From IMG/VR virus record IMGVR_UViG_3300038530_004004, positions 15,589-79,588 of that record: a stretch of DNA of 64,000 bases, one strand, 5' to 3'. The notes below the pieces were generated by a model. It was given only the letters and a program-made list of their open reading frames with translations. It did not search any database and had not been told where the DNA came from. Positions 3,386-25,418 of this stretch are shown here, piece after piece (position 1 is the first letter of the stretch; each line of letters opens with the position of its first letter). The position numbers and the translations under genes are program-made. Origin of the DNA: a virus (Duplodnaviria; Caudoviricetes).

Positions 3386-4654
3386 ATGGATAAAAAAATT
3401 AAGGTCTTCACTCTTAGTGATATGCCTCTTAGTCCTAGTGGCGTTGGAACTCAAACTAGGTATATTTGTGAAGCGTTATTAAAAACAGGAAAGTTTCAAA
3501 TTCGTTCTTTCGGGGGCGCAATCAAACACCCAAAATATGAACCCATCAAAACAGAACAATATGGCGATGACTGGATTATGTTTCCAGTAGATAGCTATGG
3601 TAACAAAGAGATGGTGCGCTCATTAATTCGTCAAGAAAAACCAGATATTCTTTGGTTTATGACCGACCCACGCTTTTGGCATTGGCTATGGGAAATGGAA
3701 AATGAAATTAGACCCCTTATGCCTATGGTTTATTATCATGTTTGGGATAATTACCCCTATCCTACTTTTAATAAATCATTTTATGAGTCTAATGATTTTA
3801 TTGCAACAATATCAAAAGTAACAGATGATATTGTAAAAACTGTTGCTCCTGACGTCAAAAGTCAATACATCCCTCATGCGGTTAATAGTAATATATTTAA
3901 ACCTATTGAAGATAAAGACATTATGACTAGGTTTAAAGAGCAAGCGCTTGGAGAATATTATGAACCAGATAAGTTTATTTTCTTTTGGAATAATCGAAAT
4001 GCTAGAAGAAAACAATCTGGGTCTTTAATTTTTTGGTTTAAAGAATTTTTAGATAAAGTTGGTCACGACAAAGCTTGCTTAATTATGCATACTGAAGTAC
4101 AGGATCCCAATGGACAAGATCTTCAGGCAATTGTAGAACATTTAGATTTAGTGAACGGCCAAGTATTATTTAGCCAAACAAAAGTTAACTTAAGTAAGCT
4201 AGCGCTTATGTATAACATGGCTGATTGCACAATCAATATTTCAGACGCAGAGGGCTTTGGTTTAGCAACACTTGAATCACTTTCTTGTGGCACCCCGATT
4301 ATAGTTAATATGACGGGAGGACTTCAAGAACAAGTCACAGATGGTGAAAATGAATTTGGCATCCCTCTACAACCGGCTTCAAAAGCAATTATTGGCTCCC
4401 AGGCCATTCCTTGGATTCGAGAAGATAGATTAAATGGTGACGATGTTGTTGATGCAATGTATAAGATGTTTAATTTATCAAAAGAAGAAAGAGATAACAT
4501 GGGTAAGCTTGGTCGTAAACATGTAATGAAAAATTATAATTTTGATGATTTTAACAAAACTTGGATTGACACCATGATTAATATTTACGAACAAGAAGGA
4601 TCATGGGATAAAAGAAAATATAACAAAAGATGGACTTTGGAGGAGGTTGCCTAA
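3386..4654 (+). CDS. Glycosyltransferase, GT-B (GT4-like)
   Basis: SGVGTQ, YIPHAVN, NRNARRKQ and AEGFGLATLESLSCGTPII (E-x7-E) motifs. Confidence 0.9.
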   Translation: MDKKIKVFTLSDMPLSPSGVGTQTRYICEALLKTGKFQIRSFGGAIKHPKYEPIKTEQYGDDWIMFPVDSYGNKEMVRSLIRQEKPDILWFMTDPRFWHWLWEMENEIRPLMPMVYYHVWDNYPYPTFNKSFYESNDFIATISKVTDDIVKTVAPDVKSQYIPHAVNSNIFKPIEDKDIMTRFKEQALGEYYEPDKFIFFWNNRNARRKQSGSLIFWFKEFLDKVGHDKACLIMHTEVQDPNGQDLQAIVEHLDLVNGQVLFSQTKVNLSKLALMYNMADCTINISDAEGFGLATLESLSCGTPIIVNMTGGLQEQVTDGENEFGIPLQPASKAIIGSQAIPWIREDRLNGDDVVDAMYKMFNLSKEERDNMGKLGRKHVMKNYNFDDFNKTWIDTMINIYEQEGSWDKRKYNKRWTLEEVA

Positions 4655-5928
4655 TGAAAGTCTTAGTAAGAGGTCCAGCGCTAACTCGCACCGGCTACGG
4701 TGAACACTGTCGTTTTGTATTGAGATGTTTAAGAGAGTGTAAAAATTTAGATATTTACTTATTACCAGTTAATTGGGGAGAGTCAGCTTGGGTATGGGAA
4801 GACACAGAAGAAAGGTCTTGGATTGATGAAATAGTTAAAAAAACTGCCATGTATAATCAACAAAAAGGCCAATATGATATGTCTATTCAAGTTACTATTC
4901 CTAACGAATGGCAGCGTATGGCTCCGGTAAATATTGGTGTTACAGCTGGTATTGAAACAACAAAAGTTTCACCGGTGTGGCTACAAAAATGCAATGAGAT
5001 GGATAAAATTGTTACTATTTCCGAACACTCTAAAAATTCTTTTTTAGATTCAGTGTATCAAGGTGTAGATCAAAATGGCAACCCAGCTTTTTTACGATGT
5101 CAAAAGCCAATAGAGATTGTTCACTATCCTGTTAAAAAAGATATACTGGACAATACAAAAAATCTTTTAAATCTGAAATTGTCAACAAAATTTAATTTTC
5201 TAACAGTGGCCCAATGGGGTGCAAGAAAAAACCTTGGTGCAACAGTTGAGTGGTTTATCGAAGAATTTATTGACAATCCTGAAGTGGGACTAGTCGTCAA
5301 AACTTTTGTCCGCGGCGGCAGTATAATGGATAAGCGCCTTATGTTTAAAGAATTAAAAAGATTGTTAGATAAATATAAAAATAGAAAGTGTAAAGTGTAC
5401 CTTCTTCATGGAGATTTAAGTGATGAGGAAATGCACTCACTGTATAGAGATAAAAACATCAGCGCACTAGTGAGCCTTACTCATGGAGAAGGATTTGGAT
5501 TGCCTTTGTTTGAAGCAGCTTATTGTGGTCTACCAGTCATAGCGACAGATTGGTCTGGACATGTTGATTTTCTTTACAAGCCAGTTAAGAATAAAAAGGG
5601 AAAACAAAAAAGCAAAGCGCACTTTGGTAAAGTTGATTATGAACTAAAACCTGTCGCCCCAGACGCAGTTTGGGATGGAGTCGTGCAGGCCGATTCAATG
5701 TGGGCATATGCCAATCCTGGTTCATACAAAATGAAATTGCGTGAGGTTTACAAAGATTATGGTCGCTTTAAATCACAAGCAAAAACTCTTATGAAGTGGA
5801 TTCACTCTGAATTTGAAGAGAGCAAACAACGTCAAAAATTTAATGATTGTTTAAAAGAATTTACCGAAGAATTGGATATTGATGATTGGTTGGATAAGTT
5901 AGAACAAGAATCGGTTACTTATGAATAA
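4654..5928 (+). CDS. Glycosyltransferase, GT-B (GT4-like)
   Basis: TGYGEH, RKNLG and GEGFGLPLFEAAYCGLPVIATDWSGH motifs; ATG overlaps the upstream TAA (TAATG). Confidence 0.9.
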   Translation: MKVLVRGPALTRTGYGEHCRFVLRCLRECKNLDIYLLPVNWGESAWVWEDTEERSWIDEIVKKTAMYNQQKGQYDMSIQVTIPNEWQRMAPVNIGVTAGIETTKVSPVWLQKCNEMDKIVTISEHSKNSFLDSVYQGVDQNGNPAFLRCQKPIEIVHYPVKKDILDNTKNLLNLKLSTKFNFLTVAQWGARKNLGATVEWFIEEFIDNPEVGLVVKTFVRGGSIMDKRLMFKELKRLLDKYKNRKCKVYLLHGDLSDEEMHSLYRDKNISALVSLTHGEGFGLPLFEAAYCGLPVIATDWSGHVDFLYKPVKNKKGKQKSKAHFGKVDYELKPVAPDAVWDGVVQADSMWAYANPGSYKMKLREVYKDYGRFKSQAKTLMKWIHSEFEESKQRQKFNDCLKEFTEELDIDDWLDKLEQESVTYE

Positions 5929-6763
5929 TGGTTACGTTTTTGTATCAGATTTTTTTTCTGATGAAATATTAGGAGGTGGAGAGTTAAATGATCAAGAGGC
6001 CATAAGTATTTTGTCAAAGAAGAATGATGTTATTAGAATTAAGAGTCAAAAGGTTGACTTATCATTTTTAAAAAAAAACATTAAAAAAAAATTTATAATT
6101 TCTAATTTTATTTTATTATCAAACGATTGTATAAAATTTTTGCAAGAAAATTGCAAATATATAATTTACGAGCATGATCATAAATATCTTGTTGGCAGAA
6201 ACCCATCGATCTATCCTAATTTTTTAGCACCAAAACAAAGCATAATCAACCATTCATTTTATAAAAACGCATGTAGTGTTTTTTGTCAATCTGGTTTTCA
6301 CAAAAATATATTACAAAAAAATTTGCAAATAAATAATTTAGTTAACTTAAGTGGTAATCTTTGGTCTGATGATACTTTAGATATTTTAGAAAAACACTCT
6401 GCTAAACAAAAAGTACAAAAAGCATCTATAATGTTATCAAATATTAAGCATAAAAACACCAAAGCATCTGTACTTTATTGTGAAAAAAAGAGTATTGATT
6501 ATGAACTAATACCGAGTTTAGGTTATCATGATTTTTTAAGTGCAATGAGTAATAATGATAAACTTGTATTCTTCCCTAAAACCCCAGAGACGTTATCGAG
6601 AATTGTTGTTGAGTGTCGAATGATGGGAATGAAAGTTATAACAAACAAATTAGTTGGAGCTTCAATGGAGCCATGGTTTAAATTAAAAGGTAAAGACTTA
6701 ATATTATTTATGAAAAATAAAAAAAATGATATTTTATTAAAAATAGAAGAGGCTTTTAAATGA
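5921..6763 (+). CDS. Putative GT-B-derived glycosyltransferase
   Basis: GGGELND at the N-terminus, YEHDHKY, and PETLSRIVVECRMMGMKVITN resembling the GT-B E-x7-E region; lies within the GT cluster. Confidence 0.55.
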   Translation: MNNGYVFVSDFFSDEILGGGELNDQEAISILSKKNDVIRIKSQKVDLSFLKKNIKKKFIISNFILLSNDCIKFLQENCKYIIYEHDHKYLVGRNPSIYPNFLAPKQSIINHSFYKNACSVFCQSGFHKNILQKNLQINNLVNLSGNLWSDDTLDILEKHSAKQKVQKASIMLSNIKHKNTKASVLYCEKKSIDYELIPSLGYHDFLSAMSNNDKLVFFPKTPETLSRIVVECRMMGMKVITNKLVGASMEPWFKLKGKDLILFMKNKKNDILLKIEEAFK

Positions 6764-7503
6764 TTAATTTTAAAGTAGTCATTCCTGTATATAACGCTGA
6801 AAAGTGGGTTCATTTATGTTTGAGAAGTTTAAAAAGACAAAGCTACAAGAATTTTCAGTGCTATATAGTAGATGACTTATCGACTGATAATACGTACAAG
6901 ATAGCATCCAACGAAATAAAAAATGATGAAAGGTTTTTCTTGCTTAAGCCAAGCCAAAAAGGATACCCTTTAGGAAGTTTAAATTTTGCTCTTGAAAATG
7001 CTAATATTGAAGATGAAGATGTTGTGGTTATATTAGATGGAGATGATTGGTTTTATAGTGAAAAAACCCTGCAAATTGTAAAAGAAATGTATGATAAAAC
7101 TGGTTGTTATTTGACATATGGAAGTTATGTTGAATATCCATCAAAAAAAAGAGGTAAATTCTCTAGAGAAGTGCCAAAACACATTGTAGAAAACAAGCTT
7201 TATAGAAGGTCGGAATGGATGACTAGTCATATGAGGACTTTTAAATATAAACTATGGAAGAGCATAGATAAGGACGATTTAAAAGATGAGAATGGCCGCT
7301 TTTATAAAAAGGCCGGCGATTTGGCTTCTACTTTTTGCATGTTAGAATTAGCGGGTAATAAAATTTCTTATATAAACGATATATTGTACGTTTACAATCG
7401 TGATAATCCGTTAAATGAGGATAAAGTTAATCACACAGAGCAACTTTTAGCCGAAAACAAAATAAGAAATTCAAAAGTATATGAAACATTGAAGGAGGAC
7501 TAA
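6760..7503 (+). CDS. Glycosyltransferase family 2 (GT-A)
   Basis: VVIPVYNAEKW, IVDDLSTD and ILDGDDW (DxD) motifs. Confidence 0.92.
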   Translation: MINFKVVIPVYNAEKWVHLCLRSLKRQSYKNFQCYIVDDLSTDNTYKIASNEIKNDERFFLLKPSQKGYPLGSLNFALENANIEDEDVVVILDGDDWFYSEKTLQIVKEMYDKTGCYLTYGSYVEYPSKKRGKFSREVPKHIVENKLYRRSEWMTSHMRTFKYKLWKSIDKDDLKDENGRFYKKAGDLASTFCMLELAGNKISYINDILYVYNRDNPLNEDKVNHTEQLLAENKIRNSKVYETLKED

Positions 7504-7504
7504 C

Positions 7505-8365
7505 TTGAACTTTTTTAAAGAAGACAAATTATATTTAATAACCGGAGCCACTGGTTTTTTGGGTGAGTGCCTAGTGAAAGAGCTTTTGAAAAAAAACATC
7601 AAATTAAGAGTTGTTTCACGCAACGAAGGTAAATTAATAGAACTTAAGCAAAAGTTTCCTTCAATTGAAATATACACCGGTGATGTATCAAATAAGTTTG
7701 ACACACATCAAGCCTGTAAAGGAGTTTCGGGGGTATACCATCTCGCAGCTTACAAACACGTTGGATTGGCGGAAAAGTTTTCTAAAGAATGTACTCAATC
7801 AAATGTTATTGCTTCATTAAATATTTTAGAAGAATCACTACAAAACAAATTTGATTTCGTTATTGGAATTAGCACTGACAAAGCTGCGCAGGTTAGTGGT
7901 GTTTACGGTGCAACAAAATACTTGATGGAAACACTGTTTCAACAATATGAACGCCTAAATCCAGAAACTCAATACAGATTAGTTCGTTATGGTAATGTTC
8001 TTTACTCGACTGGATCTGTGCTATGCAAGTGGAAAAAGTTATTACAAGAGGGCGGCGAAGTCGTTGTCACAGACACAAATGCAACAAGATTTTTTTGGAC
8101 AAGAGATGAAGCTGTACAACTAATTTTTGATTGTTTACAAAAAGCAGAAAATTCAAATCCATATGTTCCACATATGAAAGCCATGTCTATTGGTTCTTTA
8201 TTGGATGCTATGGCAGCTAAATATCTTCCAGCTGGGAGTGAGTTAAAAATAAAAACCATAGGATTGCAACCAGGGGAAAACCTTCATGAAAAAATATTAC
8301 AAGAAGGTCCGTACTCAAACGAGGTTGATTTTTTTACTGTTGAAGAAATTATGGAGAAAATCTAA
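7505..8365 (+). CDS. UDP-GlcNAc 4,6-dehydratase, PseB/FlaA1-like (Polysacc_synt_2)
   Basis: GATGFLG, HLAAYKHV, STDKA (T-D-K triad), YGATK, RYGNVLYSTGSV and GLQPGENLHE motifs; TTG start. Confidence 0.8.
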   Translation: MNFFKEDKLYLITGATGFLGECLVKELLKKNIKLRVVSRNEGKLIELKQKFPSIEIYTGDVSNKFDTHQACKGVSGVYHLAAYKHVGLAEKFSKECTQSNVIASLNILEESLQNKFDFVIGISTDKAAQVSGVYGATKYLMETLFQQYERLNPETQYRLVRYGNVLYSTGSVLCKWKKLLQEGGEVVVTDTNATRFFWTRDEAVQLIFDCLQKAENSNPYVPHMKAMSIGSLLDAMAAKYLPAGSELKIKTIGLQPGENLHEKILQEGPYSNEVDFFTVEEIMEKI

Positions 8366-9966
8366 TGAAAGTAGCTGGATTGTGCTCGGGCCATGACTGT
8401 GCCTTTGCGATTTTAGAAGATGGAGTTCCAATCCTCCATGCAGAATTAGAAAGATATTTAAGAGTTAAAGAGCCGTTAGGTGATTCTTTAGAATTTTTAT
8501 TTAAAACTTATGATTCATATGATGAAATAACTCATTTCACCCATTGTTTAGATAGCTGGAATGGAGGGATATCAAAAAGATACCCAGAAACTTTTAAGAA
8601 AATGAACGATCTTATTGAAAAAAGCAATGGAGAATATTTTGTCCCCGGCCACCATGAGTGTCATGCTGCAAACGCTTTCTTCTCAAGTAATTTTGAAGAT
8701 GCTTTAATAGTGACTATTGACGGCGGCGGAAGAGATTATGACAAGAATGGTAATGAATTTATTACAACTTTCACTATATGGGAGGGTAAAGGAAATAAAA
8801 TAAAACCAATAGCGATACTACCAGAGGATAAAATTAATTTGGGTGTGATGTGGTCTTTTTGCACAAAAAATATTTTTGGTTTGTCTGATGGATATCCAAA
8901 AGGAAATCAAGCTGGCTCCGTAATGGCCATGGCTGTGATGGGAGATCCGACAGAACACTTTGATTATTTTCACAGTTTTAAAGGTAAATTAAATAATAGA
9001 TTTGATTATAAGAGATTAAGACAATTAGCAGAGACATCAGAGGAACAAAGATTTAATATTGCAGCCGCATTACAAAAAACAACAGAAGTCATGACTAAAG
9101 CTATCATTGATAAGTATATTGATAAAAGTTCTTCTAGAAATTTATGTTTGGCTGGTGGTGTGGTGCTTAATTCTGTTATGTCTGGAAAAATGTTTGATTG
9201 GTATAATGATAGATTTGATGACATTTACATGTGCCCAGTGCCTTATGATGCGGGTTTAGCCATTGGCGCAGCGCAGTGGGTGTGGCATCAAAAATTAGAT
9301 AATCCAAGAATAAAATGGGATGACAATGCAACACCGTATTTAGGTGAGCTTTATAGTGCTGATCAGGTAAAAAAGGACATTGATAGCTATGGTGAGAGGA
9401 TTATAACAAAAACCACAACCGATGATGAAGTTTTAGATCTTTTGGCTAAAGGAAAGATAGTTTCTGTGTTCGGCGGCGGTTCGGAATCAGGAAGGCGTGC
9501 ATTGGGGAATAGAAGTATTCTGGCAGATCCACGTAGTCCAAAAATGAAAGACAAGATTAATGAAAAAGTAAAACATAGACAATGGTACAGGCCATTTGCA
9601 CCAGCTATACTAAAGGAAAGAGTAAAAGACTGGTTTGTTAGAGATATAGACAGTCCTTATATGGGCTTTGTTATAAAATTTAAACAAGAGGCCAAAGATA
9701 AAGTACCAGCCGTTGTGCATTATGATGGAAGCGGAAGACTACAGACAGTCAGCGAAAAAGATAATTATTGGTTCTATAATTTTCTTAAACAGTGGGAAAA
9801 AGTATCAGGCGTCCCAATACTTTTAAATACTAGTTTTAATGATAGAGAGCCAATTGTAGAAACTGCCTCACACGCAGTTAACTGCTTTCTAGGGACTAAA
9901 ATTGATTACTTGTATTTTTATGATGAAAAAATACTAGTTGAAAAAAGTGGTGCTGATAATGCCTAA
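8365..9966 (+). CDS. O-carbamoyltransferase, NodU/CmcH/NovN family
   Basis: GHDCA, ELER, HHECHAANAF, IDGGG, LAGGVVLN, DAGLAIGAA, GRRALGNRSILADPR, KHRQWYRPFAP, HYDGSGRLQTV and LLNTSFN motifs. Confidence 0.95.
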   Translation: MKVAGLCSGHDCAFAILEDGVPILHAELERYLRVKEPLGDSLEFLFKTYDSYDEITHFTHCLDSWNGGISKRYPETFKKMNDLIEKSNGEYFVPGHHECHAANAFFSSNFEDALIVTIDGGGRDYDKNGNEFITTFTIWEGKGNKIKPIAILPEDKINLGVMWSFCTKNIFGLSDGYPKGNQAGSVMAMAVMGDPTEHFDYFHSFKGKLNNRFDYKRLRQLAETSEEQRFNIAAALQKTTEVMTKAIIDKYIDKSSSRNLCLAGGVVLNSVMSGKMFDWYNDRFDDIYMCPVPYDAGLAIGAAQWVWHQKLDNPRIKWDDNATPYLGELYSADQVKKDIDSYGERIITKTTTDDEVLDLLAKGKIVSVFGGGSESGRRALGNRSILADPRSPKMKDKINEKVKHRQWYRPFAPAILKERVKDWFVRDIDSPYMGFVIKFKQEAKDKVPAVVHYDGSGRLQTVSEKDNYWFYNFLKQWEKVSGVPILLNTSFNDREPIVETASHAVNCFLGTKIDYLYFYDEKILVEKSGADNA

Positions 9967-11719: not shown

Positions 11720-12473
11720 AAATGATAAAGTGATCATAAGCGTTTTATGTCCAACTCGTGGCCGAACAGCGCTTATGAAAAGAGCGTTAGAGAGTTGCTT
11801 TTCCACATGTGCAAATCCTGCTCAAATTGAGTTTGTCTTTGGGCTAGATGACGATGATTTAGAGTCAATAAAAATGGCTCAAGAGTTAGAGGATCTATAC
11901 CCAGATAAAAACATCTCACACACCATATGGCCAAGAAAAAAGTTTAAGTTTTCAGATTTGATGAACCAGTGTTCTAAAGCCGCTTGTGGTGAGATATTTG
12001 GTTTATTTTCTGATGATGCCATATATAACAGTAAAAACTGGGATGATATAGTAGTTAAATTTTTTAATGAATGTGAGCATAGAGATAAATTATATTTATT
12101 ACAAACATCTGGCGGCGCGAATGCTCAAACTGGTTTCCCCTTTATGCATAAAAATTGGCGGACTGCAGCTGGATATTTACTAGCTCCAATCTTTAATGGT
12201 GATTGGGGGGATTACTGGCTGGCAGACGTTATAAATGGTATTGGACGTGAAAGGTTTGTTTTTCGTAGAGACATTGAAATAAAGCATTTGCATGTTGAAT
12301 GGGGCAAGATGGAAAAAGACCAAACATATTTTGAACATCTTAAAGAAAGAAAAGAACAAGAAAATTTACCTAGAAATCTTCACCCATATCACGGAGATGA
12401 AGGCCAGAGACTAAAAGCACTAGAAATAGAAAATTTGCGTAATTTCATAAAAAATTTTAAAGAGGAGGAATAA
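11712..12473 (+). CDS. GT2-like (GT-A fold) glycosyltransferase
   Basis: ISVLCPTRGR, FGLDDDD and FSDDAIY (DxD-like) motifs, plus HLH near the C-terminus. Confidence 0.7.
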   Translation: MSKNDKVIISVLCPTRGRTALMKRALESCFSTCANPAQIEFVFGLDDDDLESIKMAQELEDLYPDKNISHTIWPRKKFKFSDLMNQCSKAACGEIFGLFSDDAIYNSKNWDDIVVKFFNECEHRDKLYLLQTSGGANAQTGFPFMHKNWRTAAGYLLAPIFNGDWGDYWLADVINGIGRERFVFRRDIEIKHLHVEWGKMEKDQTYFEHLKERKEQENLPRNLHPYHGDEGQRLKALEIENLRNFIKNFKEEE

Positions 12474-16770: not shown

Positions 16771-16771
16771 A

Positions 16772-17749: not shown

Positions 17750-17751
17750 TT

Positions 17752-20360: not shown

Positions 20361-20372
20361 AGGAGAGTACTG

Positions 20373-21131
20373 ATGGCTGACAACAACACAAAAATTTTAA
20401 CATATGACAATGAATCAGAAAAAAGTGCAAGAGACGAAATGTATAACCTGCTTAAAAAGTGTCCTATTCCAGAAGAGCAAGTTCTGTCAAATTTGGGACT
20501 ATTTTTAAATTCTAAAAACCTCTCCAGAATATTGTTCATGAATTACATATATCAAAAACAAATTGATGTGCATGGTGTATTAATGGAGTTTGGCACTAGA
20601 TGGGGCCAAAATGTAGCTTTGTTTGCTGCTCTGCGCGGGATGTATGAGCCATTTAATAGACATAAAAAGCTGATAGCTTTTGATACATTTGAAGGCTTTC
20701 CAGAAATTACCGAAGAGGACGGTACTTCATCAATGATGGTTAAAGGAGAACTGGCATTGACAACTGATTATGATAAGTATCTATCTGAAGTTGTTCAGAA
20801 TATTGAAAATGATAATCCTCTATCTCACATTAAAAAGTTTGAACTCGTAAAAGGTGATGCTACAAAAACAATACACACGTATTTGAAAGACAATCCTGAA
20901 ACGATTGTTTCTTTAGCTTATTTCGATTTTGATTTGTATAAACCTACTAAAGAGTGTTTAGAGGCTATTAAGCCTAGACTAACAAAAGGCAGTGTAGTTG
21001 CTTTTGATGAATTGAATGATCCTGACTCACCGGGAGAAACTTTAGCTTTGATGGAAGTTTTTGGTTTGCAGAATGTAAAACTAAAGCGCTTTCCTTATGC
21101 TTCCCGCGTTTCATATTTCATAGTGGAGTAA
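20373..21131 (+). CDS. TylF/MycF/NovP-family sugar O-methyltransferase
   Basis: MEFGTRWG, FDTFEGFP, LVKGD, YFDFDLYKPT and VVAFDE motifs. Confidence 0.82.
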   Translation: MADNNTKILTYDNESEKSARDEMYNLLKKCPIPEEQVLSNLGLFLNSKNLSRILFMNYIYQKQIDVHGVLMEFGTRWGQNVALFAALRGMYEPFNRHKKLIAFDTFEGFPEITEEDGTSSMMVKGELALTTDYDKYLSEVVQNIENDNPLSHIKKFELVKGDATKTIHTYLKDNPETIVSLAYFDFDLYKPTKECLEAIKPRLTKGSVVAFDELNDPDSPGETLALMEVFGLQNVKLKRFPYASRVSYFIVE

Positions 21132-21134
21132 AAA

Positions 21135-22124
21135 ATGAAAAATATTTTAGATAATTCGAAAGTGTTGGTTACTGGTGGCACCGGAATGATTGGCCGCTAT
21201 TTGGTTGATAAACTGTTGGCAAAAAAATGCCAAGTGACAGTTGTATCTTTGGACGATCCTGGTGATTTACCGTCTGAAGTAAAGTTTATGAAATTAGACT
21301 TAACTGTTTTAGAAAACTGTATGAAAGCGTGCGAAGGCCAAGATTACGTTTTTAATCTTATTGGAATCAAAGGCTCTCCAAAAATGTCTCGTGAAAAACC
21401 AGCGAGTTTTATGGTACCCATGCTTATGTTTAATACCGCCATGATGGAAGCAGCAATGCGATGCAATGTCAAATGGTATCTCTATACTAGTTCTGTCGGT
21501 GTATATCATCCTGCAGAGGTGTTTAAAGAAGACGATGTTTGGAAAACTTTCCCATCGGATAATGACAAGCACCCTGGCTGGGCGAAAAGAATCGGTGAAC
21601 TTCAAGCTGATGCGTATAAAATTCAATACGGAAGAGATAATATTTCTATAGTAAGACCAGCAAATGTATACGGTAAGTGGGATAACTTTGACCCGGAGAA
21701 CGCAATGGTTGTTCCATCTTTGATAAACAGAATTGTTTCGGGTGAATCTCCGCTAGTCTGTTGGGGCGACGGCACGCCAATTAGAGATTTTATTTATGCT
21801 GGTGATTGCGCTGAAGGCATGATACACATGGTTGAAAATGGTGTAACAGACCCAGTTAATTTAGGCAGCGGTGATGGCGTCTCCATTAAAGAGGTTGCAG
21901 AAACAATCCGTGATTGTTTTAATAAAGAAGTTGGTATTGAATGGGATGTAACAAAGCCAAAAGGTGATGCAAGAAGGTTAATGGATACCACACGAGCAGA
22001 AAGTCATGGATTTAAATGTTCTACTTCCATTAAAGATGGCGTTAGGGAAACGTTGGAGTGGTTCTTACAAAATCGTGACTTATACAAAACAAGAAACAAC
22101 TATTTTAAAGGAAATGAAAGTTGA
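21135..22124 (+). CDS. Extended SDR, Fcl-like epimerase/reductase, atypical active site; close paralog of 16772-17749
   Basis: GGTGMIG, TSSVGVY, NVYGKWD, WGDGTPIRDFIY and EWDVTKP motifs; the YxxxK position reads PGWAK. Confidence 0.82.
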   Translation: MKNILDNSKVLVTGGTGMIGRYLVDKLLAKKCQVTVVSLDDPGDLPSEVKFMKLDLTVLENCMKACEGQDYVFNLIGIKGSPKMSREKPASFMVPMLMFNTAMMEAAMRCNVKWYLYTSSVGVYHPAEVFKEDDVWKTFPSDNDKHPGWAKRIGELQADAYKIQYGRDNISIVRPANVYGKWDNFDPENAMVVPSLINRIVSGESPLVCWGDGTPIRDFIYAGDCAEGMIHMVENGVTDPVNLGSGDGVSIKEVAETIRDCFNKEVGIEWDVTKPKGDARRLMDTTRAESHGFKCSTSIKDGVRETLEWFLQNRDLYKTRNNYFKGNES

Positions 22125-22636
22125 TAATTAAAGATACCAAGCTACATGGAGTAAAGTTAATAATTCCAGAGGTTTTTGAAGATCACCGCGGTTCTTATGT
22201 AGAATTGTATGATAGTGAGAAATTTAACTCGGCTATTGGTGAAGTTAATTTTGTTCAAGACGATATATCAATTTCTAGAAGAAATGTCCTTAGAGGTCTA
22301 CACGGCGACTTCAAAACAACAAAACTAGTTACGGTCTTAAAGGGTAGTGGATATGCACTGATCGCTGATAATAGAACATATTCTCCTACCTACAAAAAAT
22401 GGCAAGCATTTACTCTTAATGGAGAAAACAGAAAACAATTATTGTTACCACCAGGAATAGGTAATTCTATACTTGCATTAGACGAAGAAATAGTGTATTA
22501 TTACAAACAAGATACTCATTTTACAGATGGCAAACAGTTTACCATTAAGTGGAATGATAGTGATTGGGATTTTTGGTGGCCAATAAAAAACCCCATACTT
22601 TCAATGAGAGATGAAAAGGGAGATTATGTCAGTTAA
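22121..22636 (+). CDS. rmlC: NDP-4-keto-6-deoxy-sugar 3,5-epimerase (RmlC/RfbC cupin)
   Basis: FEDHRG, FVQDDISISRRNVLRGLH, KLVTV and WPIKNPILSMRD motifs. Confidence 0.88.
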   Translation: MIIKDTKLHGVKLIIPEVFEDHRGSYVELYDSEKFNSAIGEVNFVQDDISISRRNVLRGLHGDFKTTKLVTVLKGSGYALIADNRTYSPTYKKWQAFTLNGENRKQLLLPPGIGNSILALDEEIVYYYKQDTHFTDGKQFTIKWNDSDWDFWWPIKNPILSMRDEKGDYVS

Positions 22637-23636
22637 TTGTTTAATTACAGGTATTACAGGGATGGTTGGTTCCCATCTGGCTGATTTTTTATTAGAAAAA
22701 ACAGACTGGAATGTTTTTGGGTTAATGAGGTGGAATGACAGAACTGATAATATAGAGCACTTATTCCCAAGAATAAATGATAAAAATAGAGTTTTTTTAG
22801 AATATGGGGACATTAATGACTTATCATCATTGTTGCATGTTTTTGATAAAGTAAAACCTGATTATGTTTTTCATTTGGCCGCTCAAAGCTACCCAAAAAC
22901 TAGTTTTGAATCTCCTCTAGAAACACTAGAGACTAATATTCTTGGGACAGCAAAAGTATTAGATGCAATAAAAAAACTTAATTTGAATCCTGTTATTCAT
23001 GTTTGTGCATCATCAGAGGTTTTTGGTAGAGTGCCAAAAGAGTTGTTACCAATCCATGAGGACGTTACGTTCCACCCGGCTTCTCCATATGCTATATCAA
23101 AAGTAGGAACAGACCTAATAGGTCGCTTTTATGCTGAAGCATATGGATTAACAGTAATGACAACCAGAATGTTCACCCACACAGGCCCCCGGCGCGGTGA
23201 CGTCTTTGCAGAATCAACCTTTGCAAAGCAGATTGCAATGATAGAGGCTGGATTGCAAGAGCCCGTTATTAAAGTTGGTAATTTAAATTCTTTAAGAACT
23301 TGGTCTGATGTTCGTGATGCAGTGAGAGCATATTATCTTCTGGTTACTAAAAACCCTACGGCTGGTGAATATTATAATATAGGCGGTTCCTTTACATGTA
23401 GTGTCAAAGAAATGTTGGACTATTTGATATCTTTATCAACTGTTAGAAATATCTCAATAGAAATAGACCCAGAAAGATTACGCCCCATAGATGCTGATCT
23501 TCAAGTGCCAAACACTGATAAGTTTAAATCACATACAGGCTGGCAACCACAAATTAGTTTTGAAAAAACTATGTTAGATTTGTTAAACTATTGGAGAGAT
23601 AAGATAAGTGGAAACAAGAACTTTCTCATCAGGTAA
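22626..23636 (+). CDS. GDP-sugar 4,6-dehydratase, DmhA/WcbK (GDP-manno-heptose) subfamily of Gmd-like enzymes
   Basis: GITGMVGSHLAD, HLAAQSYP, SSEVFG, SPYAISK, THTGPRRGDVFAESTFAKQIA and RLRPID motifs; strongly resembles the Yersinia DmhA sequence as recalled. Confidence 0.85.
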   Translation: MSVNCLITGITGMVGSHLADFLLEKTDWNVFGLMRWNDRTDNIEHLFPRINDKNRVFLEYGDINDLSSLLHVFDKVKPDYVFHLAAQSYPKTSFESPLETLETNILGTAKVLDAIKKLNLNPVIHVCASSEVFGRVPKELLPIHEDVTFHPASPYAISKVGTDLIGRFYAEAYGLTVMTTRMFTHTGPRRGDVFAESTFAKQIAMIEAGLQEPVIKVGNLNSLRTWSDVRDAVRAYYLLVTKNPTAGEYYNIGGSFTCSVKEMLDYLISLSTVRNISIEIDPERLRPIDADLQVPNTDKFKSHTGWQPQISFEKTMLDLLNYWRDKISGNKNFLIR

Positions 23637-23639
23637 AGA

Positions 23640-24377
23640 ATGAAAAACGATGTATTAGTAATAGGAGAATCTTGTGTTGATGTTTTTTGTTATGGATCTT
23701 GCCATAGACTAGCACCGGCAGCGCCAGCACCGGTTTTTGTTCCCATGGATCAAACTTCAAACCCTGGTATGGCCATGAATGTCCAAAGAAATTTAAAATC
23801 TTTAGGGGTTTCTTGTTCAATTCACACTAATGACAACTGGCAATCAGTTTCAAAAACAAGATATGTCCACCTAGATACAAATCAAATGTTTTTAAGGGTT
23901 GATAAGAATGATGATGAGATAAATAAATGTGATTTAAAACAAATCAATTTGGATGAATATAAAATAATAGTTATATCTGATTATAATAAAGGTTTTTTAT
24001 CAAAAGAAGATATTGAAATTATATGCGCTAATCATTCTAACGTTTTTTTAGATACAAAGAAAAAATTAGGAAATTGGTGTGTAAATTCAAAATTTATAAA
24101 AATAAACAAAAAAGAATATAATGATTCAAGAGATACGCTCCCAAAAGATATAATGAACAAATTAATAGTAACTTTAGGTGAAAACGGCTGCATGTATAAA
24201 GGAGAAGTATTTTCAGTGGAAAAGGTAGAAATTAAAGATGTGTCCGGCGCAGGAGACACTTTTTTCGCAGGATTAATTACTAAATATTTGAATACTGGTG
24301 ATATTTTTAAATCAATTAAGTTTGCAAATGAATGCGCTAGCAAAGTTGTGCAAAGAAAAGGTGTTTCGATAGTATGA
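23640..24377 (+). CDS. Heptose-7-phosphate kinase, RfaE/HldE domain I (PfkB family)
   Basis: VIGESCVD, RLAPAAPAPV, GMAMNV, KTRY, ISDYNKG and DVSGAGDTF motifs. Confidence 0.88.
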   Translation: MKNDVLVIGESCVDVFCYGSCHRLAPAAPAPVFVPMDQTSNPGMAMNVQRNLKSLGVSCSIHTNDNWQSVSKTRYVHLDTNQMFLRVDKNDDEINKCDLKQINLDEYKIIVISDYNKGFLSKEDIEIICANHSNVFLDTKKKLGNWCVNSKFIKINKKEYNDSRDTLPKDIMNKLIVTLGENGCMYKGEVFSVEKVEIKDVSGAGDTFFAGLITKYLNTGDIFKSIKFANECASKVVQRKGVSIV

Positions 24378-25081
24378 AAAAAGTTTTTACAAATGGATGC
24401 TTTGATATATTACACAGAGGTCACATCGAACTTTTGCAATATTGTAAAACTCTAGGCACTGTAATTGTTGGATTAAACAGTGATAATAGTGTAAGAAGAC
24501 TAAAAGGCTCGCAAAGGCCCATAAACAAACAAAAAGATAGAAAAAAACTTCTTGAGGCTCTCGATTGTGTAGACCATGTTGTTATTTTTTCTGAAAACAC
24601 TCCATTAGAATTAATAAAAGAGATAAAACCTGATATAATTGTAAAAGGTGGAGATTATAAAGAAAGTGAAGTTGTGGGCTCCGATTTAGCAGAAGTAAAA
24701 ATATTTAATTTTATTGAGGGGTATTCAACCACTAAAACTATTTCAAAAGTAACAAACAAAAAAACTTACGTCGTTGACATAGATGGCACGATATGTACAA
24801 ACACAAATGGAGATTATGAAAACGCAAAGCCTCTATATGATAGAATAAATAAAATTAATCAATTATACAGTTTAGGAAATACAATAATATTTCAAACTGC
24901 AAGAGGAATGGGAAGACACAATAACAAAGCAGATCTTGCGCGCTATGATTTTTATAATTTTACAAAAAAACAGCTTGATTCTTGGGGCGTAAAATACCAC
25001 CAGCTTTTTCTAGGAAAGCCGGCAGGAGATAAATACATAGACGATAAAGGAATAACTGATGTCGAATTCTTTAGAGATTAA
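24374..25081 (+). CDS. Heptose-1-phosphate nucleotidyltransferase (RfaE/HldE domain II) fused to a BcbF/EcbF-like HAD phosphatase
   Basis: N-domain FTNGCFDILHRGH, GLNSD, KGGDY, EGYSTT; C-domain VVDIDGT, TARG, GKP, YIDDK. Confidence 0.88.
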   Translation: MKKVFTNGCFDILHRGHIELLQYCKTLGTVIVGLNSDNSVRRLKGSQRPINKQKDRKKLLEALDCVDHVVIFSENTPLELIKEIKPDIIVKGGDYKESEVVGSDLAEVKIFNFIEGYSTTKTISKVTNKKTYVVDIDGTICTNTNGDYENAKPLYDRINKINQLYSLGNTIIFQTARGMGRHNNKADLARYDFYNFTKKQLDSWGVKYHQLFLGKPAGDKYIDDKGITDVEFFRD

Positions 25082-25418
25082 ATTTGTTTCAAAAGGCTGG
25101 GGCTTTGAAAAATGGATTGTTAATAAGCCAGAGTATTGTGGAAAACTACTGTTTTTTAAAAATGGAAAAAGGTGCTCATGGCACTATCACAAAATAAAAG
25201 ATGAAGTATTTTATTTACAATCAGGCAAACTAATGGTTTATTATTCAGACGACGATGAAATAAACAACGCAAAACAGAAAATTTTGTTGCCTGGGGATAA
25301 TTTTCACGTTTATGTTGGCTTAAGACACCAGATGGTAGCGCTTGAAGATTCCGAATTATTTGAGTTTTCAACACAACATTTTGATGAGGATAGTTATAGA
25401 ATTTTAAAAGGAGACTAA
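25059..25418 (+). CDS. Cupin, sugar(-phosphate) isomerase-like
   Basis: KGWGFEKWIVN..YCGK, CSWHYHKIKDE and HQMVA cupin metal-binding motifs. Confidence 0.75.
   Translation: MSNSLEIKFVSKGWGFEKWIVNKPEYCGKLLFFKNGKRCSWHYHKIKDEVFYLQSGKLMVYYSDDDEINNAKQKILLPGDNFHVYVGLRHQMVALEDSELFEFSTQHFDEDSYRILKGD

What the first reader, a model, noticed from the sequence alone, without database searches (positions are those of the whole stretch)
3386..25418. ~22-kb phage locus for building and transferring a heavily tailored, probably C-branched deoxy-heptose-type sugar
Seen: 24 translationally coupled genes, comprising 6 GT genes (7 GT-like domains), a PseB-like dehydratase, NodU, two ThDP enzyme pairs, three atypical SDRs, two AKR fusions, TylF, RmlC, a DmhA-like dehydratase and a heptose activation module, all inside a genome with phage baseplate and replication genes. 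Known: 4,6-dehydratase + RmlC + Fcl-like reductase makes 6-deoxy(heptose) sugars (Yersinia/Campylobacter/Burkholderia). ThDP enzymes add acyl branches to 4-keto sugars, and reductases then reduce the branch (yersiniose YerE/YerF logic). Inference: a complete, possibly undescribed viral pathway for an unusual sugar used to glycosylate the virion, remodel the host surface, or hypermodify phage DNA. The locus lies close upstream of the sigma and tail genes.
Basis: partly seen in the sequence, partly recalled or inferred. Interest (0 to 1): 0.88.

Follow-up and report, generated by a model that had tools for sequence, protein, structure and literature searches.

The report
Phage gene island for a tailored heptose glycan
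An uncultured marine tailed phage carries 25 tightly packed genes that probably make an unusual, likely carbon-branched 6-deoxy-heptose sugar and attach it to some target; the sugar-making core is shared with many ocean phages and with SAR11-type bacteria, and its product has never been identified.

Summary
Window 3386-25418 has 25 co-directional, soluble, tightly abutting genes: six glycosyltransferases (four clear, one by fold, one marginal), a PseB-like dehydratase, a carbamoyltransferase, a minimal E1-like ThDP pair, a split transketolase, three Fcl-like SDRs lacking the YxxxK tyrosine, two aldo-keto reductases, a methyltransferase, RmlC, a DmhA-type heptose 4,6-dehydratase and a kinase / nucleotidyltransferase-phosphatase / cupin module.

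It is not a chimera. Two viral contigs are collinear across 23 genes. In 186-194 kb relatives the island sits in the same slot, between an exonuclease and the late-sigma/baseplate genes.

The core (DmhA, RmlC, E1-like pair, atypical SDRs) occurs on at least 117 viral contigs. It also occurs in SAR11, SAR116, SAR202 and marine gammaproteobacterial genomes. Cultured cyanophages carry related sets: S-SM2 and P-TIM68 the fused E1-like pair with kinase, nucleotidyltransferase and phosphatase, Bellamy the dehydratase, cupin and carbamoyltransferase. Phages replace the bacterial HddA/HddC activation genes with a PfkB/HldE-type set plus a cupin, and carry their own glycosyltransferases.

Best reading: a phage-resident pathway to a tailored, probably C-branched 6-deoxyheptose, assembled in the cytoplasm. 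The target is unresolved; virion proteins are slightly favoured over host envelope, and DNA is unlikely.

This is a new variant of the known "LPS-like" clusters of marine myoviruses. First readers of this scan flagged similar E1 pairs on other genomes (sequence look-alikes in 25 windows of 19 genomes).

The parts
3386..4654 (+). GT4 glycosyltransferase (GT4a), 422 aa
   Evidence: Glycos_transf_1 E 1.4e-12. Homologs follow the exonuclease gene in 30 of 80 viral loci.
4630..5928 (+). GT4 glycosyltransferase (GT4b), 432 aa
   Evidence: Glycos_transf_1 E 4.7e-11. Found in 35 of 80 viral loci.
5921..6763 (+). Compact GT-B-fold protein, probable glycosyltransferase, 280 aa
   Evidence: No Pfam or PHROG hit. 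AlphaFold model pLDDT 87.8. Foldseek matches GT4 enzymes 2jjm, 3mbo and 8jjq at E 3e-6 to 1e-5, prob 1.00.
6760..7503 (+). GT2 glycosyltransferase (GT2a), 247 aa
   Evidence: Glycos_transf_2 E 3.7e-24.
7505..8365 (+). PseB/FnlA-like short SDR, probable UDP-HexNAc 4,6-dehydratase, 286 aa
   Evidence: Polysacc_synt_2 E 1.4e-64. PseB TIGR03589 scores 175 bits, below its cut-off of 407.
8365..9966 (+). NodU/CmcH-type O-carbamoyltransferase, 533 aa
   Evidence: Carbam_trans_C E 3.7e-61 and Carbam_trans_N E 1.4e-21.
9938..11719 (+). 593-aa fusion: unknown N-terminal domain of about 300 aa plus a GT10-like module (aa 309-579)
   Evidence: Glyco_transf_10 E 3.4e-6. The C-terminal half matches stand-alone 281-307-aa proteins that precede the DUF gene in relatives. 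The N-terminal part has no family; the Atlas gives only a weak GT2 lead.
11712..12473 (+). Marginal GT2-like protein (GT2b), 253 aa
   Evidence: Glycos_transf_2 E 0.0018, 18.6 bits, below the cut-off of 23.3.
12473..12889 (+). DUFa: conserved four-helix protein of unknown function, 138 aa
   Evidence: 37% identical to DUFb. Up to 85% identical in 46 of 80 viral loci but present in only 3 of 37 bacterial loci. Model pLDDT 85.5 with four helices. No informative fold match. Invariant polar residues D15, K23, N71, N98, R101, N102 and N106.
12882..13841 (+). SDR1: Fcl-like extended SDR with a Y-x6-K motif in place of YxxxK, 319 aa
   Evidence: Epimerase E 5.6e-42. Fcl NF047922 scores 144 bits, below its cut-off of 500. 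The motif YFGVGW(T/M)K is conserved across homologs.
13841..14482 (+). E1a: minimal E1-alpha-like ThDP (PP-domain) subunit, 213 aa
   Evidence: E1_dh E 1.7e-15. PDH E1-alpha hit E 3e-8 over the core only. GDM...EDND cofactor motif. 2651 homologs found.
14500..15033 (+). E1b: minimal E1-beta-like Pyr-domain subunit lacking the E2-docking C-domain, 177 aa
   Evidence: Transket_pyr E 1.3e-10. E1-beta hits cover only the N-terminal part of the chains, up to about residue 187. Fused to E1a in cyanophage P-TIM68.
15030..15845 (+). Split transketolase, N-terminal subunit, 271 aa
   Evidence: Transketolase_N E 1.7e-44. GDG...DRN motif.
15838..16770 (+). Split transketolase, C-terminal subunit, 310 aa
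   Evidence: Transket_pyr E 1.5e-25 and Transketolase_C E 7.2e-13.
16772..17749 (+). SDR2: Fcl-like SDR without the YxxxK tyrosine (PGLAK), 325 aa
17752..18162 (+). DUFb: paralog of DUFa, 136 aa
   Evidence: BLASTP E 9e-27, 37% identity to DUFa.
18163..19260 (+). Aldo-keto reductase 1 with a C-terminal extension, 365 aa
   Evidence: Aldo_ket_red E 2.9e-54 over aa 16-270.
19206..20360 (+). Aldo-keto reductase 2 with a C-terminal tail, 384 aa
   Evidence: Aldo_ket_red E 8.6e-63. The ParB_N match to the tail is only E 0.0068.
20373..21131 (+). SAM methyltransferase (Methyltransf_24, TylF-like), 252 aa
   Evidence: Methyltransf_24 28.6 bits; TylF 22.7 bits against a cut-off of 23.
21135..22124 (+). 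SDR3: Fcl-like SDR without the YxxxK tyrosine (PGWAK), 329 aa
   Evidence: Best PDB match is Fcl 7ll6 at E 3.5e-34. The motif (A/P)GWAKR(I/M)GE holds across the family. More than 7000 close homologs, auto-named 'GDP-L-fucose synthase'.
22121..22636 (+). RmlC-type 3,5-epimerase, 171 aa
   Evidence: dTDP_sugar_isom E 7.3e-44. Best PDB matches are the C. jejuni GDP-4-keto-heptose 3,5-epimerases 8dco and 8db5 at E 3e-32.
22611..23636 (+). DmhA-type NDP-heptose 4,6-dehydratase, 341 aa
   Evidence: 7us5 (GDP-D-glycero-D-manno-heptose 4,6-dehydratase) E 1.1e-112, 380 bits. SSE and YAISK catalytic motifs are present.
23640..24377 (+). Short PfkB kinase (HldE domain-I type), 245 aa
   Evidence: PfkB E 8e-19. 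rfaE_dom_I scores 112 bits, below its cut-off of 345. 48% identical to the P-TIM68 'carbohydrate kinase'.
24374..25081 (+). Heptose-1-P nucleotidyltransferase (HldE domain-II type) fused to an EcbF/BcbF-type phosphatase, 235 aa
   Evidence: rfaE_dom_II scores 166.7 bits against a cut-off of 181.5; EcbF-BcbF E 8e-13. The motif reads FIEGYSTT, with Tyr where promiscuous enzymes have Arg (PMC11573728). The two halves match separate P-TIM68 genes at 48% and 53% identity.
25059..25418 (+). Metal-type cupin, candidate sedoheptulose-7-P isomerase standing in for GmhA, 119 aa
   Evidence: Cupin_2 E 8.6e-6 and Lyx_isomer E 0.0036. HxH...E...H motif. 72% identical to Bellamy gene 216. 71-74% identical in relatives that have no SIS-type GmhA. 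Weak L-ribose isomerase hit, E 0.04.
2572..3378 (+). Exonuclease: conserved left flank of the island
   Evidence: phrog_69 E 5e-21. The order exonuclease, GT4a, GT4b recurs in relatives.
26166..26864 (+). gp55-like late sigma factor: conserved right flank of the island
   Evidence: phrog_234 E 1.7e-6. Follows the island in L022, L026, L069 and L071.

Best explanation
The locus is a long-resident, variable glycan island of an uncultured marine myovirus lineage whose near-complete relatives are about 186-194 kb. It sits between an exonuclease gene and the late-sigma/baseplate genes.

Inferred pathway:
1. The cupin isomerises sedoheptulose-7-P (inferred).
2. The PfkB kinase, the BcbF-type phosphatase and the HldE-type nucleotidyltransferase make an NDP-heptose (assigned by homology).
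3. The DmhA-type enzyme and RmlC convert it to an epimerised NDP-6-deoxy-4-keto-heptose (strong homology).
4. The minimal E1-like ThDP pair adds a C2 branch from a 2-oxo acid at the keto carbon. The split transketolase adds or extends a hydroxyacetyl unit (inferred from gene linkage and from precedent).
5. The atypical SDRs, the four-helix DUF proteins and the aldo-keto reductases process the keto and branch groups.
6. The methyltransferase and the carbamoyltransferase decorate the sugar or the glycan.
7. Six soluble glycosyltransferases build an oligosaccharide in the cytoplasm. The GT10-like one is linked to the core module in relatives.
8. The PseB-like enzyme probably feeds a second 6-deoxy-HexNAc sugar.

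Sub-probabilities:
- A 6-deoxyheptose-based sugar: about 0.75.
- C-branching by the ThDP enzymes: about 0.5.
- Acceptor: virion proteins about 0.45, host envelope precursors about 0.4.
For: Residence in the phage:
- L008 and L009 are collinear across 23 genes at 43-89% amino-acid identity.
- Relatives G003 (92% complete) and G004 (100% complete) carry gp6 homologs 12-15 kb from the island.
- In the E1a tree, viral sequences fall mostly in one half apart from SAR11 sequences: 6 label changes against about 30 in shuffles.

Linkage of the ThDP pair to the keto-sugar step:
- DmhA abuts E1a/E1b in SAR11 HIMB1412 and in a Dehalococcoidia MAG.
- Most relatives place a ColD-type 3-dehydratase directly after E1b (2gms E 3e-58, with His in place of Lys).
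- The E1 pair lacks the E2-docking parts but keeps the ThDP motif.

Transketolase sub-module:
- The transketolase co-occurs with the AKR(s) in L008, L009, L014, L053 and L120; the methyltransferase joins them in the four viral loci, and SDR2 and DUFb in L008, L009 and L120.

Precedent:
- Three ThDP families branch keto sugars: YerE-like, alpha-KADH2 and split transketolases (PMC12247030).

Cytoplasmic assembly and phage-specific parts:
- None of the 25 proteins has a membrane-spanning segment.
- The phage glycosyltransferases, the DUF and the activation genes are absent from the 37 bacterial loci that share the biosynthetic core.
- There is no SIS-type GmhA in complete relatives, yet the cupin is conserved there at 71-74% identity.
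Against: - Nothing here has been tested biochemically.
- The activation genes are of the HldE (beta-anomer, ADP) type, whereas the closest characterised dehydratase uses GDP-alpha-heptose. Bacterial relatives indeed use a GHMP kinase and an HddC-type transferase. The nucleotide and the anomer are therefore unresolved.
- All three Fcl-like SDRs lack the canonical catalytic tyrosine, so their reductase role is uncertain.
- The transketolase could simply supply sedoheptulose-7-P.
- The window lacks the ColD-type gene found in most relatives.
- No acceptor has been identified.
- Most family scores fall below the curated equivalog cut-offs.
Confidence: 0.6

Rival explanations
1. Host-surface remodelling. 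The phage makes the sugar nucleotide and adds it, through its soluble glycosyltransferases, to the host's lipid-linked O-antigen or capsule precursors. The host's own exporters then display the altered glycan. This would block superinfection or stop progeny from adsorbing to the infected cell.
For: The same biosynthetic core lies in envelope-glycan islands of SAR11, SAR116, SAR202 and marine gammaproteobacteria, next to an ABC transporter. This is the explanation the authors of PMC7029224 consider likely for LPS-type genes in pelagimyophage host-recognition clusters, and PMC12801897 also suggests host cell-surface modification for cyanophages. The variable gene content between relatives fits selection acting on a surface.
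Against: The island has no flippase, polymerase, phosphoglycosyl transferase, Gtr-type or other membrane protein. None of the phage glycosyltransferases has a homolog in the 37 bacterial loci that share the sugar pathway. That argues for a different acceptor or linkage.
Confidence: 0.38
2. The ThDP enzymes do not branch the sugar. The split transketolase only boosts sedoheptulose-7-P supply. The minimal E1 pair is a 2-oxo-acid decarboxylase that makes an acyl or aldehyde group for another purpose. The product would then be an unbranched 6-deoxyheptose.
For: Transketolase naturally makes sedoheptulose-7-P, the pathway's precursor. Marine phages are known to carry pentose-phosphate genes; a transaldolase lies near the P-TIM68 cluster. 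Sugar branching by a transketolase has never been shown in vitro (PMC12247030).
Against: E1a/E1b lie beside or within a few genes of DmhA, the ColD-type gene and the SDRs in phages and bacteria. The transketolase co-occurs with AKRs, a methyltransferase and, in bacteria and in viral locus L014, an ALS/YerE-like ThDP enzyme. These partners are not needed for precursor supply.
Confidence: 0.3
3. Sugar hypermodification of phage DNA, in the manner of T4-type glucosyl- or arabinosyl-hydroxymethylcytosine.
For: Phage glycosyltransferases are known to decorate DNA with diverse glycans (Pyle et al. 2024, cited in PMC12619734). The island follows replication and nucleotide-metabolism genes.
Against: There is no ThyA-family pyrimidine hydroxymethylase (PF00303) in this contig or in relatives that are 92% and 100% complete. 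Six glycosyltransferases plus methyl and carbamoyl tailoring are far more than known DNA modifications need. The adenylosuccinate-synthetase-like gene upstream resembles PurA more than PurZ.
Confidence: 0.04
4. Assembly chimera, or a recently captured bacterial O-antigen locus.
For: The GC skew is higher over 1-26 kb than downstream. One IMG/VR locus (L064) has an E1a identical to one on a contig binned in a gammaproteobacterial MAG (L122).
Against: The high-skew stretch also covers the phage PhoH and exonuclease genes. The island is collinear in L008 and L009 and is flanked by the same phage genes in 186-194 kb relatives. Viral E1a sequences group apart from the bacterial ones.
Confidence: 0.02

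Closest known systems
GDP-6-deoxy-heptose pathways of Campylobacter jejuni and Yersinia pseudotuberculosis (DmhA/DdahA dehydratase, RmlC-type epimerases, Fcl-type C4 reductases; PMC10680097, PMC10440746)
   Same: The dehydratase matches C. jejuni GDP-heptose 4,6-dehydratase 7us5 at E 1e-112. The epimerase's best matches are C. jejuni GDP-4-keto-heptose epimerases. Relatives add a ColD-type 3-dehydratase, as in the 3,6-dideoxyheptose route.
   Different: Activation is of the PfkB/HldE type plus a cupin, not GmhA/HddA/GmhB/HddC. The Fcl-like SDRs lack the catalytic tyrosine. There are extra ThDP, AKR, methyl and carbamoyl steps. The pathway is encoded by a phage.
ThDP-dependent branching of NDP-keto sugars: YerE (yersiniose A), alpha-KADH2 pairs (aldgarose, kibdelomycin KbDH-alpha/beta), and the proposed split transketolases of miharamycin and amipurimycin (PMC12247030)
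   Same: An E1 alpha/beta-type pair and a split transketolase sit in a deoxy-keto-sugar cluster. Relatives supply a 3,6-dideoxy-4-keto acceptor like YerE's.
   Different: The pair is stripped to 213 + 177 aa, with no E2-docking domain and a GDM motif. According to the 2025 review, alpha-KADH2 and transketolase branching are known or proposed only in secondary metabolites (the predicted transketolases all from Streptomycetes), and LPS branching only for YerE-like enzymes. Here the setting is marine phages and SAR11-type surface-glycan islands. No activity has been shown.
LPS / cell-wall-modification gene clusters in the hypervariable host-recognition region of marine T4-like cyanophages and pelagimyophages (S-SM2, P-TIM68, Bellamy, P-SSM2; PMC7029224, PMC12801897)
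   Same: The position next to tail genes is the same. Homologs include the kinase (48%), the nucleotidyltransferase (48%), the phosphatase (53%), the fused E1 pair (41-43%), DmhA (53%) and the cupin (72%), plus a carbamoyltransferase gene annotated in Bellamy. The function is unknown in all of them.
   Different: This is a different phage lineage: gp6 is only 32% identical to its best isolate match. The gene set is larger and duplicated (two DUFs, three SDRs, two ThDP systems, two AKRs). No cultured representative exists.
NDP-beta-D-manno-heptose biosynthetic enzymes (GmhA, HldE, GmhB), reported also in viruses (PMC11573728)
   Same: PfkB kinase, HldE domain-II nucleotidyltransferase with an xxGxSTT motif, and a phosphatase.
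   Different: There is no SIS-type isomerase. The phosphatase is of the BcbF type and is fused to the transferase. The fifth motif residue is Tyr rather than the Arg of promiscuous enzymes. The product is fed into a dehydratase pathway.
Virus-encoded virion glycosylation (mycobacteriophage capsid and tail glycans, Freeman et al. 2023, cited in PMC12801897; giant-virus sugar pathways, from my own knowledge)
   Same: Soluble virus-encoded glycosyltransferases without export machinery; in giant viruses, complete sugar-nucleotide pathways as well.
   Different: No glycosylated virion protein has been shown for this phage or its relatives.

Membership tests
GDP-6-deoxy-heptose pathway (DmhA/DmhB, Ddah, Mlgh type) | NDP-manno-heptose 4,6-dehydratase with the S/T-x-E and YxxxK motifs | tested here: met
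   7us5 at E 1.1e-112. SSE and YAISK are present.
GDP-6-deoxy-heptose pathway (DmhA/DmhB, Ddah, Mlgh type) | RmlC-fold C3/C5 epimerase | tested here: met
   8dco and 8db5 at E 3e-32. rmlC TIGR01221 scores 134 bits against a cut-off of 156.
GDP-6-deoxy-heptose pathway (DmhA/DmhB, Ddah, Mlgh type) | C4 reductase with the canonical SDR Ser-Tyr-Lys triad | tested here: not met
   All three Fcl-like SDRs have V or P at the Tyr position, and this is conserved across their families. Matches to the C. jejuni heptose reductases (7m13, 7cxt, 7anc) are weak and C-terminal only.
GDP-6-deoxy-heptose pathway (DmhA/DmhB, Ddah, Mlgh type) | GDP-alpha-heptose supply by a GHMP kinase (HddA) and an HddC-type transferase | tested here: not met
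   The window has PfkB and rfaE-II type genes instead. The GHMP kinase plus NTP_transferase pair is present in the bacterial loci L113 and L117.
ADP/NDP-beta-heptose enzymes (GmhA-HldE-GmhB) | HldE-type kinase and nucleotidyltransferase domains | tested here: inconclusive
   rfaE_dom_II scores 166.7 against 181.5; rfaE_dom_I scores 112 against 345. Both are below the curated cut-offs, although each is the best family hit.
ADP/NDP-beta-heptose enzymes (GmhA-HldE-GmhB) | SIS-fold sedoheptulose-7-P isomerase GmhA | tested here: not met
   No PF13580 match in G000, G001, G003 (92% complete) or G004 (100% complete). A conserved cupin is present instead.
ThDP sugar-branching enzymes, YerE-like (decarboxylase superfamily) | TPP_enzyme_N/M/C architecture of about 560 aa | tested here: not met
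   The window's ThDP proteins are of the E1_dh/Transket_pyr and transketolase types. An ALS/YerE-like 559-aa protein exists in SAR11 locus L106 but not in the window.
ThDP sugar-branching enzymes, alpha-KADH2 type (AviB1/B2, KbDH-alpha/beta) | E1 alpha/beta heteromer acting on an NDP-keto sugar with pyruvate | tested here: inconclusive
   The domain types match and the genes lie near or beside DmhA and the ColD-type gene. However, the subunits are truncated, no reference sequences were available for comparison, and activity cannot be tested here.
Split-gene transketolase branching (miharamycin/amipurimycin type) | Split transketolase N/C pair inside a keto-sugar cluster, transferring a hydroxyacetyl unit to a ketone | not testable with these tools
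   Architecture and clustering fit. The reaction is unproven even in the reference systems (PMC12247030).
Phage seroconversion systems (GtrABC, Oac, Wzy-type) | Membrane-embedded flippase, bactoprenol glycosyltransferase, or serotype-specific glycosyl- or acyl-transferase | tested here: not met
   No hydrophobic span compatible with a transmembrane helix in any of the 25 proteins.
Phage DNA sugar hypermodification (T4-like) | ThyA-family pyrimidine hydroxymethylase that provides the attachment point | tested here: not met
   No PF00303 match in G000, G001, G003 or G004, while the control genomes do match.
Marine T4-like phage LPS/CWSM cluster in the host-recognition region | Sugar-nucleotide and glycosyltransferase genes in the variable region next to baseplate and tail-fibre genes, with homologs in cultured cyanomyoviruses | tested here: met
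   Position is shown. Homology to S-SM2, P-TIM68 and Bellamy genes is shown. The region is described in PMC7029224.

The most novel reading that the evidence does not exclude
The minimal E1-like ThDP pair, the tyrosine-less Fcl-like SDRs and the four-helix DUF together form an uncharacterised enzymatic route to a C-branched (di)deoxyheptose. That sugar would be one of the most widespread unidentified sugars of the surface ocean, present on SAR11-type cells. This phage lineage would use its own copy, with phage-specific activation enzymes and glycosyltransferases, to glycosylate its virions. That would be the first such case for marine phages.
Probability: 0.2. Interest if true: 0.85.

Novelty: new variant of a known kind. 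Interest (0 to 1): 0.62.

Why it matters
Close relatives of the core enzymes number in the thousands in ocean metagenomes (2651 E1a homologs and more than 7000 SDR3 homologs). They occur both in SAR11-type genomes and in large marine phages, yet the sugar they make is unknown.

If the ThDP pair does branch a 6-deoxy-4-keto-heptose, E1-type sugar branching would extend from actinomycete antibiotics to surface glycans and to viruses. It would also define a minimal carboligase of use in biocatalysis.

Finding out whether the glycan ends up on virions or on the infected cell would address a question about the 'LPS genes' of marine myoviruses that the papers read here leave at the level of conjecture. 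Cultured cyanophages carrying homologous genes (S-SM2, P-TIM68, Bellamy) make that question testable now.

Tried and rejected
- Megablast of 25 kb against the phage collection gave no match.
- Single-protein scans of viral contigs found almost nothing. The alignment-based scan was the one that worked.
Gene neighbourhoods were therefore rebuilt from fetched loci with tblastn and blastp scripts.
- The DUF fold was searched with Foldseek and with VIA-align wide. Only generic helical-hairpin matches appeared (E at least 1; Z at most 7.3), which is uninformative. The Atlas returned only unnamed viral clusters.
- Promoter and terminator scans were at chance level and say nothing about operon structure.
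- No tRNA genes were found.
- The PHROG label 'PurZ-like' for the upstream adenylosuccinate-synthetase homolog suggested a 2-aminoadenine genome. The PDB scores favour PurA (E 1e-56) over PurZ (E 4.5e-20 and 1.6e-13), so I dropped this as unresolved.
- The chimera idea was rejected.
- DNA hypermodification was downgraded.
- The ParB-like tail of the AKRs was not pursued beyond a weak Pfam hit (E 0.007).
- The careful maximum-likelihood tree did not finish, so the quick tree was used. Its supports are moderate and its root is arbitrary.
- CheckV's 8% completeness for this record looks inconsistent with relatives of about 190 kb, and I did not use it.

Full report
**Observation**

The window is bases 15589-79588 of a 79,588-bp IMG/VR virus record. 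Between 3386 and 25418 there are 25 plus-strand ORFs. Their junctions range from a 55-nt overlap to a 17-nt gap, and the first ORF follows an exonuclease gene after 7 nt.

- two GT4 enzymes, one GT2, and a 593-aa protein whose residues 309-579 form a GT10-like module;
- a PseB-like short SDR and a NodU-type carbamoyltransferase;
- an E1_dh-like 213-aa protein paired with a Transket_pyr-only 177-aa protein;
- a split transketolase;
- three Fcl-like SDRs and two aldo-keto reductases;
- a Methyltransf_24/TylF-like methyltransferase;
- RmlC, and a dehydratase matching C. jejuni GDP-D-glycero-D-manno-heptose 4,6-dehydratase (7us5) at E 1e-112;
- a short PfkB kinase;
- an HldE-domain-II nucleotidyltransferase fused to an EcbF/BcbF-type phosphatase;
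- a 119-aa metal-type cupin.

The unassigned 280-aa protein models with pLDDT 87.8 and matches GT-B glycosyltransferases. Six glycosyltransferase genes are therefore reasonable. A seventh GT domain, the N-terminal 300 aa of the 593-aa protein, is only a weak lead.

The three SDRs lack the YxxxK tyrosine. The two small unknown proteins flanking the ThDP genes are paralogs at 37% identity.

Phage context is clear. PhoH and the exonuclease lie upstream. A gp55-like late sigma factor, gp25, gp6, RuvC, an RNase H-like protein and a primase zinc finger lie downstream.

**Is it really part of a phage?**

Yes. A search with the small ThDP subunit returned 2651 homologs at 60-87% identity, on contigs up to 217 kb. 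An alignment-based scan then found it on 117 viral contigs.

- Two of these contigs (L008 on 154.6 kb, L009 on 114.2 kb) are collinear with the window across 23 genes at 43-89% amino-acid identity.
- In other relatives the island sits in the same slot: exonuclease, GT4a, GT4b, variable genes, then the late sigma gene.
- Relatives G003 (185.7 kb, 92% complete) and G004 (193.8 kb, 100% complete) carry gp6 homologs (41-46% identity) 12-15 kb from the island.
- A quick maximum-likelihood tree of the ThDP subunit places most viral sequences in one half and the SAR11, gammaproteobacterial and SAR202 sequences in the other. That is 6 label changes against about 30 in shuffles. The window sits in a well-supported six-member viral clade.

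The refuting scenario of a chimera with a bacterial O-antigen locus is therefore very unlikely.

**What the comparison adds**

Across 80 viral loci the recurrent core is DUF, SDR1, E1a, E1b, SDR3, RmlC and DmhA. The PfkB kinase, the nucleotidyltransferase-phosphatase and the cupin often accompany it. The split transketolase was found in 7 of the 80 loci and the AKRs and the methyltransferase in 5.

Most relatives carry a DegT-family gene directly after E1b. It is of the ColD type: best match 2gms at E 3e-58, with His in place of the Schiff-base Lys. A lead from earlier first-reader notes pointed to this. A ColD-type enzyme would give a 3,6-dideoxy-4-keto sugar, the kind of acceptor used by YerE in yersiniose synthesis (PMC12247030). 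The window lacks this gene.

A scan of species-representative genomes found the ThDP subunit in 37 bacterial loci. These are mostly Pelagibacteraceae, including the 1.3-Mb contig of Ca. Pelagibacter HIMB1412, plus SAR116, SAR202/Chloroflexota and marine Gammaproteobacteria.

- The bacterial loci share E1a, E1b, the SDRs, RmlC and DmhA, and sometimes the split transketolase, the AKR and the methyltransferase.
- They have none of the phage glycosyltransferases, the PfkB kinase, the nucleotidyltransferase-phosphatase or the cupin. The DUF appears in only 3 of the 37.
- Instead, individual loci carry a GHMP kinase and an NTP_transferase near DmhA (L117, L113), an ABC transporter and an ALS/YerE-like ThDP enzyme (L106), and a B12-radical SAM protein (L117).

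The sugar-tailoring chemistry is thus shared between marine bacteria and phages. The phages have their own activation module and their own transferases.

**Relation to cultured phages and the literature**

- Cyanophages P-TIM68 and S-SM2 encode a fused E1a+E1b protein, annotated 'transketolase central region-containing protein', at 38-43% identity.
- P-TIM68 also encodes homologs of the kinase (48%), the nucleotidyltransferase (48%) and the phosphatase (53%, annotated 'phosphoheptose isomerase').
- Phage Bellamy has a DmhA homolog (53%), the cupin (72%, annotated 'cysteine dioxygenase') and an annotated carbamoyltransferase within a cluster spanning about 25 kb.
- LPS-type genes, including rfaE, in the hypervariable host-recognition region of pelagimyophages and cyanomyophages are described in PMC7029224. 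Cell-wall synthesis and modification genes of cyanomyoviruses are described in PMC12801897. No function has been demonstrated.
- NDP-heptose enzymes are reported in viruses (PMC11573728). The window's transferase reads FIEGYSTT, with Tyr where promiscuous enzymes have Arg.
- The 2025 review PMC12247030 places E1-type (alpha-KADH2) and split-transketolase sugar branching only in secondary-metabolite pathways (the predicted transketolases all from Streptomycetes), and only YerE-like enzymes in LPS.

**Mechanism proposed**

Shown by strong homology: an NDP-heptose 4,6-dehydratase, an RmlC-type epimerase, an HldE-type nucleotidyltransferase, and the ThDP, AKR, glycosyltransferase and carbamoyltransferase folds.

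Inferred steps:
1. The cupin stands in for GmhA. It has an HxH...E...H metal motif, weak lyxose- and ribose-isomerase similarity and 71-74% conservation. There is no SIS-type protein in complete relatives.
2. The minimal E1 pair adds a C2 unit to the 4-keto sugar. It keeps a GDM...EDND cofactor motif, lacks the E2-docking parts, and lies beside or within a few genes of DmhA and, in most relatives, directly before the ColD-type gene.
3. The transketolase, SDR2, DUFb, AKR and methyltransferase sub-module adds and processes a hydroxyacetyl unit.
4. The GT10-like enzyme transfers the finished 6-deoxy sugar. Its stand-alone homologs directly precede the DUF gene in relatives such as L022, L026, L069 and L071.

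**Where the glycan goes**

- None of the 25 proteins has a membrane span, and there is no flippase, polymerase or priming transferase.
- The phage glycosyltransferases are absent from the bacterial loci.
- The island adjoins the late-sigma, baseplate and fibre genes.

Together these points slightly favour glycosylation of virion proteins. Modification of host envelope precursors exported by host machinery remains nearly as likely, and is the explanation the pelagimyophage authors (PMC7029224) consider likely.

DNA hypermodification is unlikely. No ThyA-family hydroxymethylase is present in the contig or in the near-complete relatives. The upstream adenylosuccinate-synthetase homolog looks like PurA rather than PurZ.

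**Open problems**

- HldE-type activation (beta-anomer) does not fit the closest characterised dehydratase, which uses GDP-alpha-heptose.
- The SDR families have conserved, non-canonical motifs: YFGVGW(T/M)K and (A/P)GWAKR(I/M)GE. This implies unusual chemistry or a non-redox role.
- The DUF is a confidently modelled four-helix protein with invariant polar residues but no informative structural relative.
- The host is unknown. The gp6 protein is only 32% identical to its best isolate match, a Microcystis phage.

**Verdict**

This is a real, phage-resident, unusually large variant of the LPS-like glycan clusters of marine myoviruses. It is built around a widespread and chemically uncharacterised deoxyheptose-plus-ThDP module. 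First readers of this scan had flagged similar minimal E1 pairs on other genomes; sequence look-alikes turned up in 25 windows of 19 genomes.

Noticed in passing
L005:18474-18812 (Prochlorococcus phage P-TIM68, record KM359505.1): The gene annotated 'putative phosphoheptose isomerase' (112 aa) is 53% identical (E 9e-37) to the EcbF/BcbF-type phosphatase half of the window's nucleotidyltransferase fusion. It shows no similarity to the cupin. The public annotation is probably wrong.
   Followed up: partly
L007:12214-12564 (Synechococcus phage Bellamy gene 216): This gene is annotated 'cysteine dioxygenase' but is 72% identical to the window's cupin. It lies between the kinase and nucleotidyltransferase genes of a heptose cluster, so a sugar-phosphate isomerase role seems more plausible.
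   Followed up: partly
L002:7967-8977 (contig bases 7967-8977, upstream of the window): A short (336 aa) adenylosuccinate-synthetase homolog matches the PHROG family labelled as the PurZ type. By PDB scores it is closer to PurA (E 1.7e-56) than to PurZ structures (E 4.5e-20 and 1.6e-13). Whether the phage makes 2-aminoadenine DNA is unresolved.
   Followed up: partly
L064 (IMG/VR contig) and L122 (contig NZZP01000015.1 of a Gammaproteobacteria MAG): The two loci hold identical E1a sequences although one is classed as viral and the other is binned in a bacterial MAG. One classification is probably wrong, or the MAG bin includes DNA of an infecting phage.
   Followed up: no
L106:12025-13704 (Ca. 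Pelagibacter HIMB1412); similar-sized ORFs of about 550 aa in L014, L092, L117 and L120: In L106 the roughly 555-aa ORF before the split transketolase is an ALS/YerE-like ThDP enzyme (Pfam). Similar-sized ORFs, not scanned, hold the same position in L014, L092, L117 and L120. L106 therefore carries three different ThDP systems in one glycan island, and these others probably do too.
   Followed up: partly
Giant ORFs of 1837 aa (with a strongly hydrophobic segment near residue 401) and 3263 aa flank the gp25/gp6 baseplate genes.
   Followed up: no
L002:6056-7924 and L002:10576-12561: Upstream of the window lie a 622-aa protein with MopE-type copper-binding motifs plus a weak VWA hit, and a 661-aa protein with a cytidylyltransferase-like domain. 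Their functions are unknown.
   Followed up: no
window 1-26000 versus 26001-64000: GC skew is clearly higher (0.09-0.22) over the first 26 kb, which covers PhoH, the exonuclease and the sugar island, than over the structural-gene region (about 0-0.11). All genes are on the same strand. This may mark an early/late transcription unit or a replication-related boundary.
   Followed up: no
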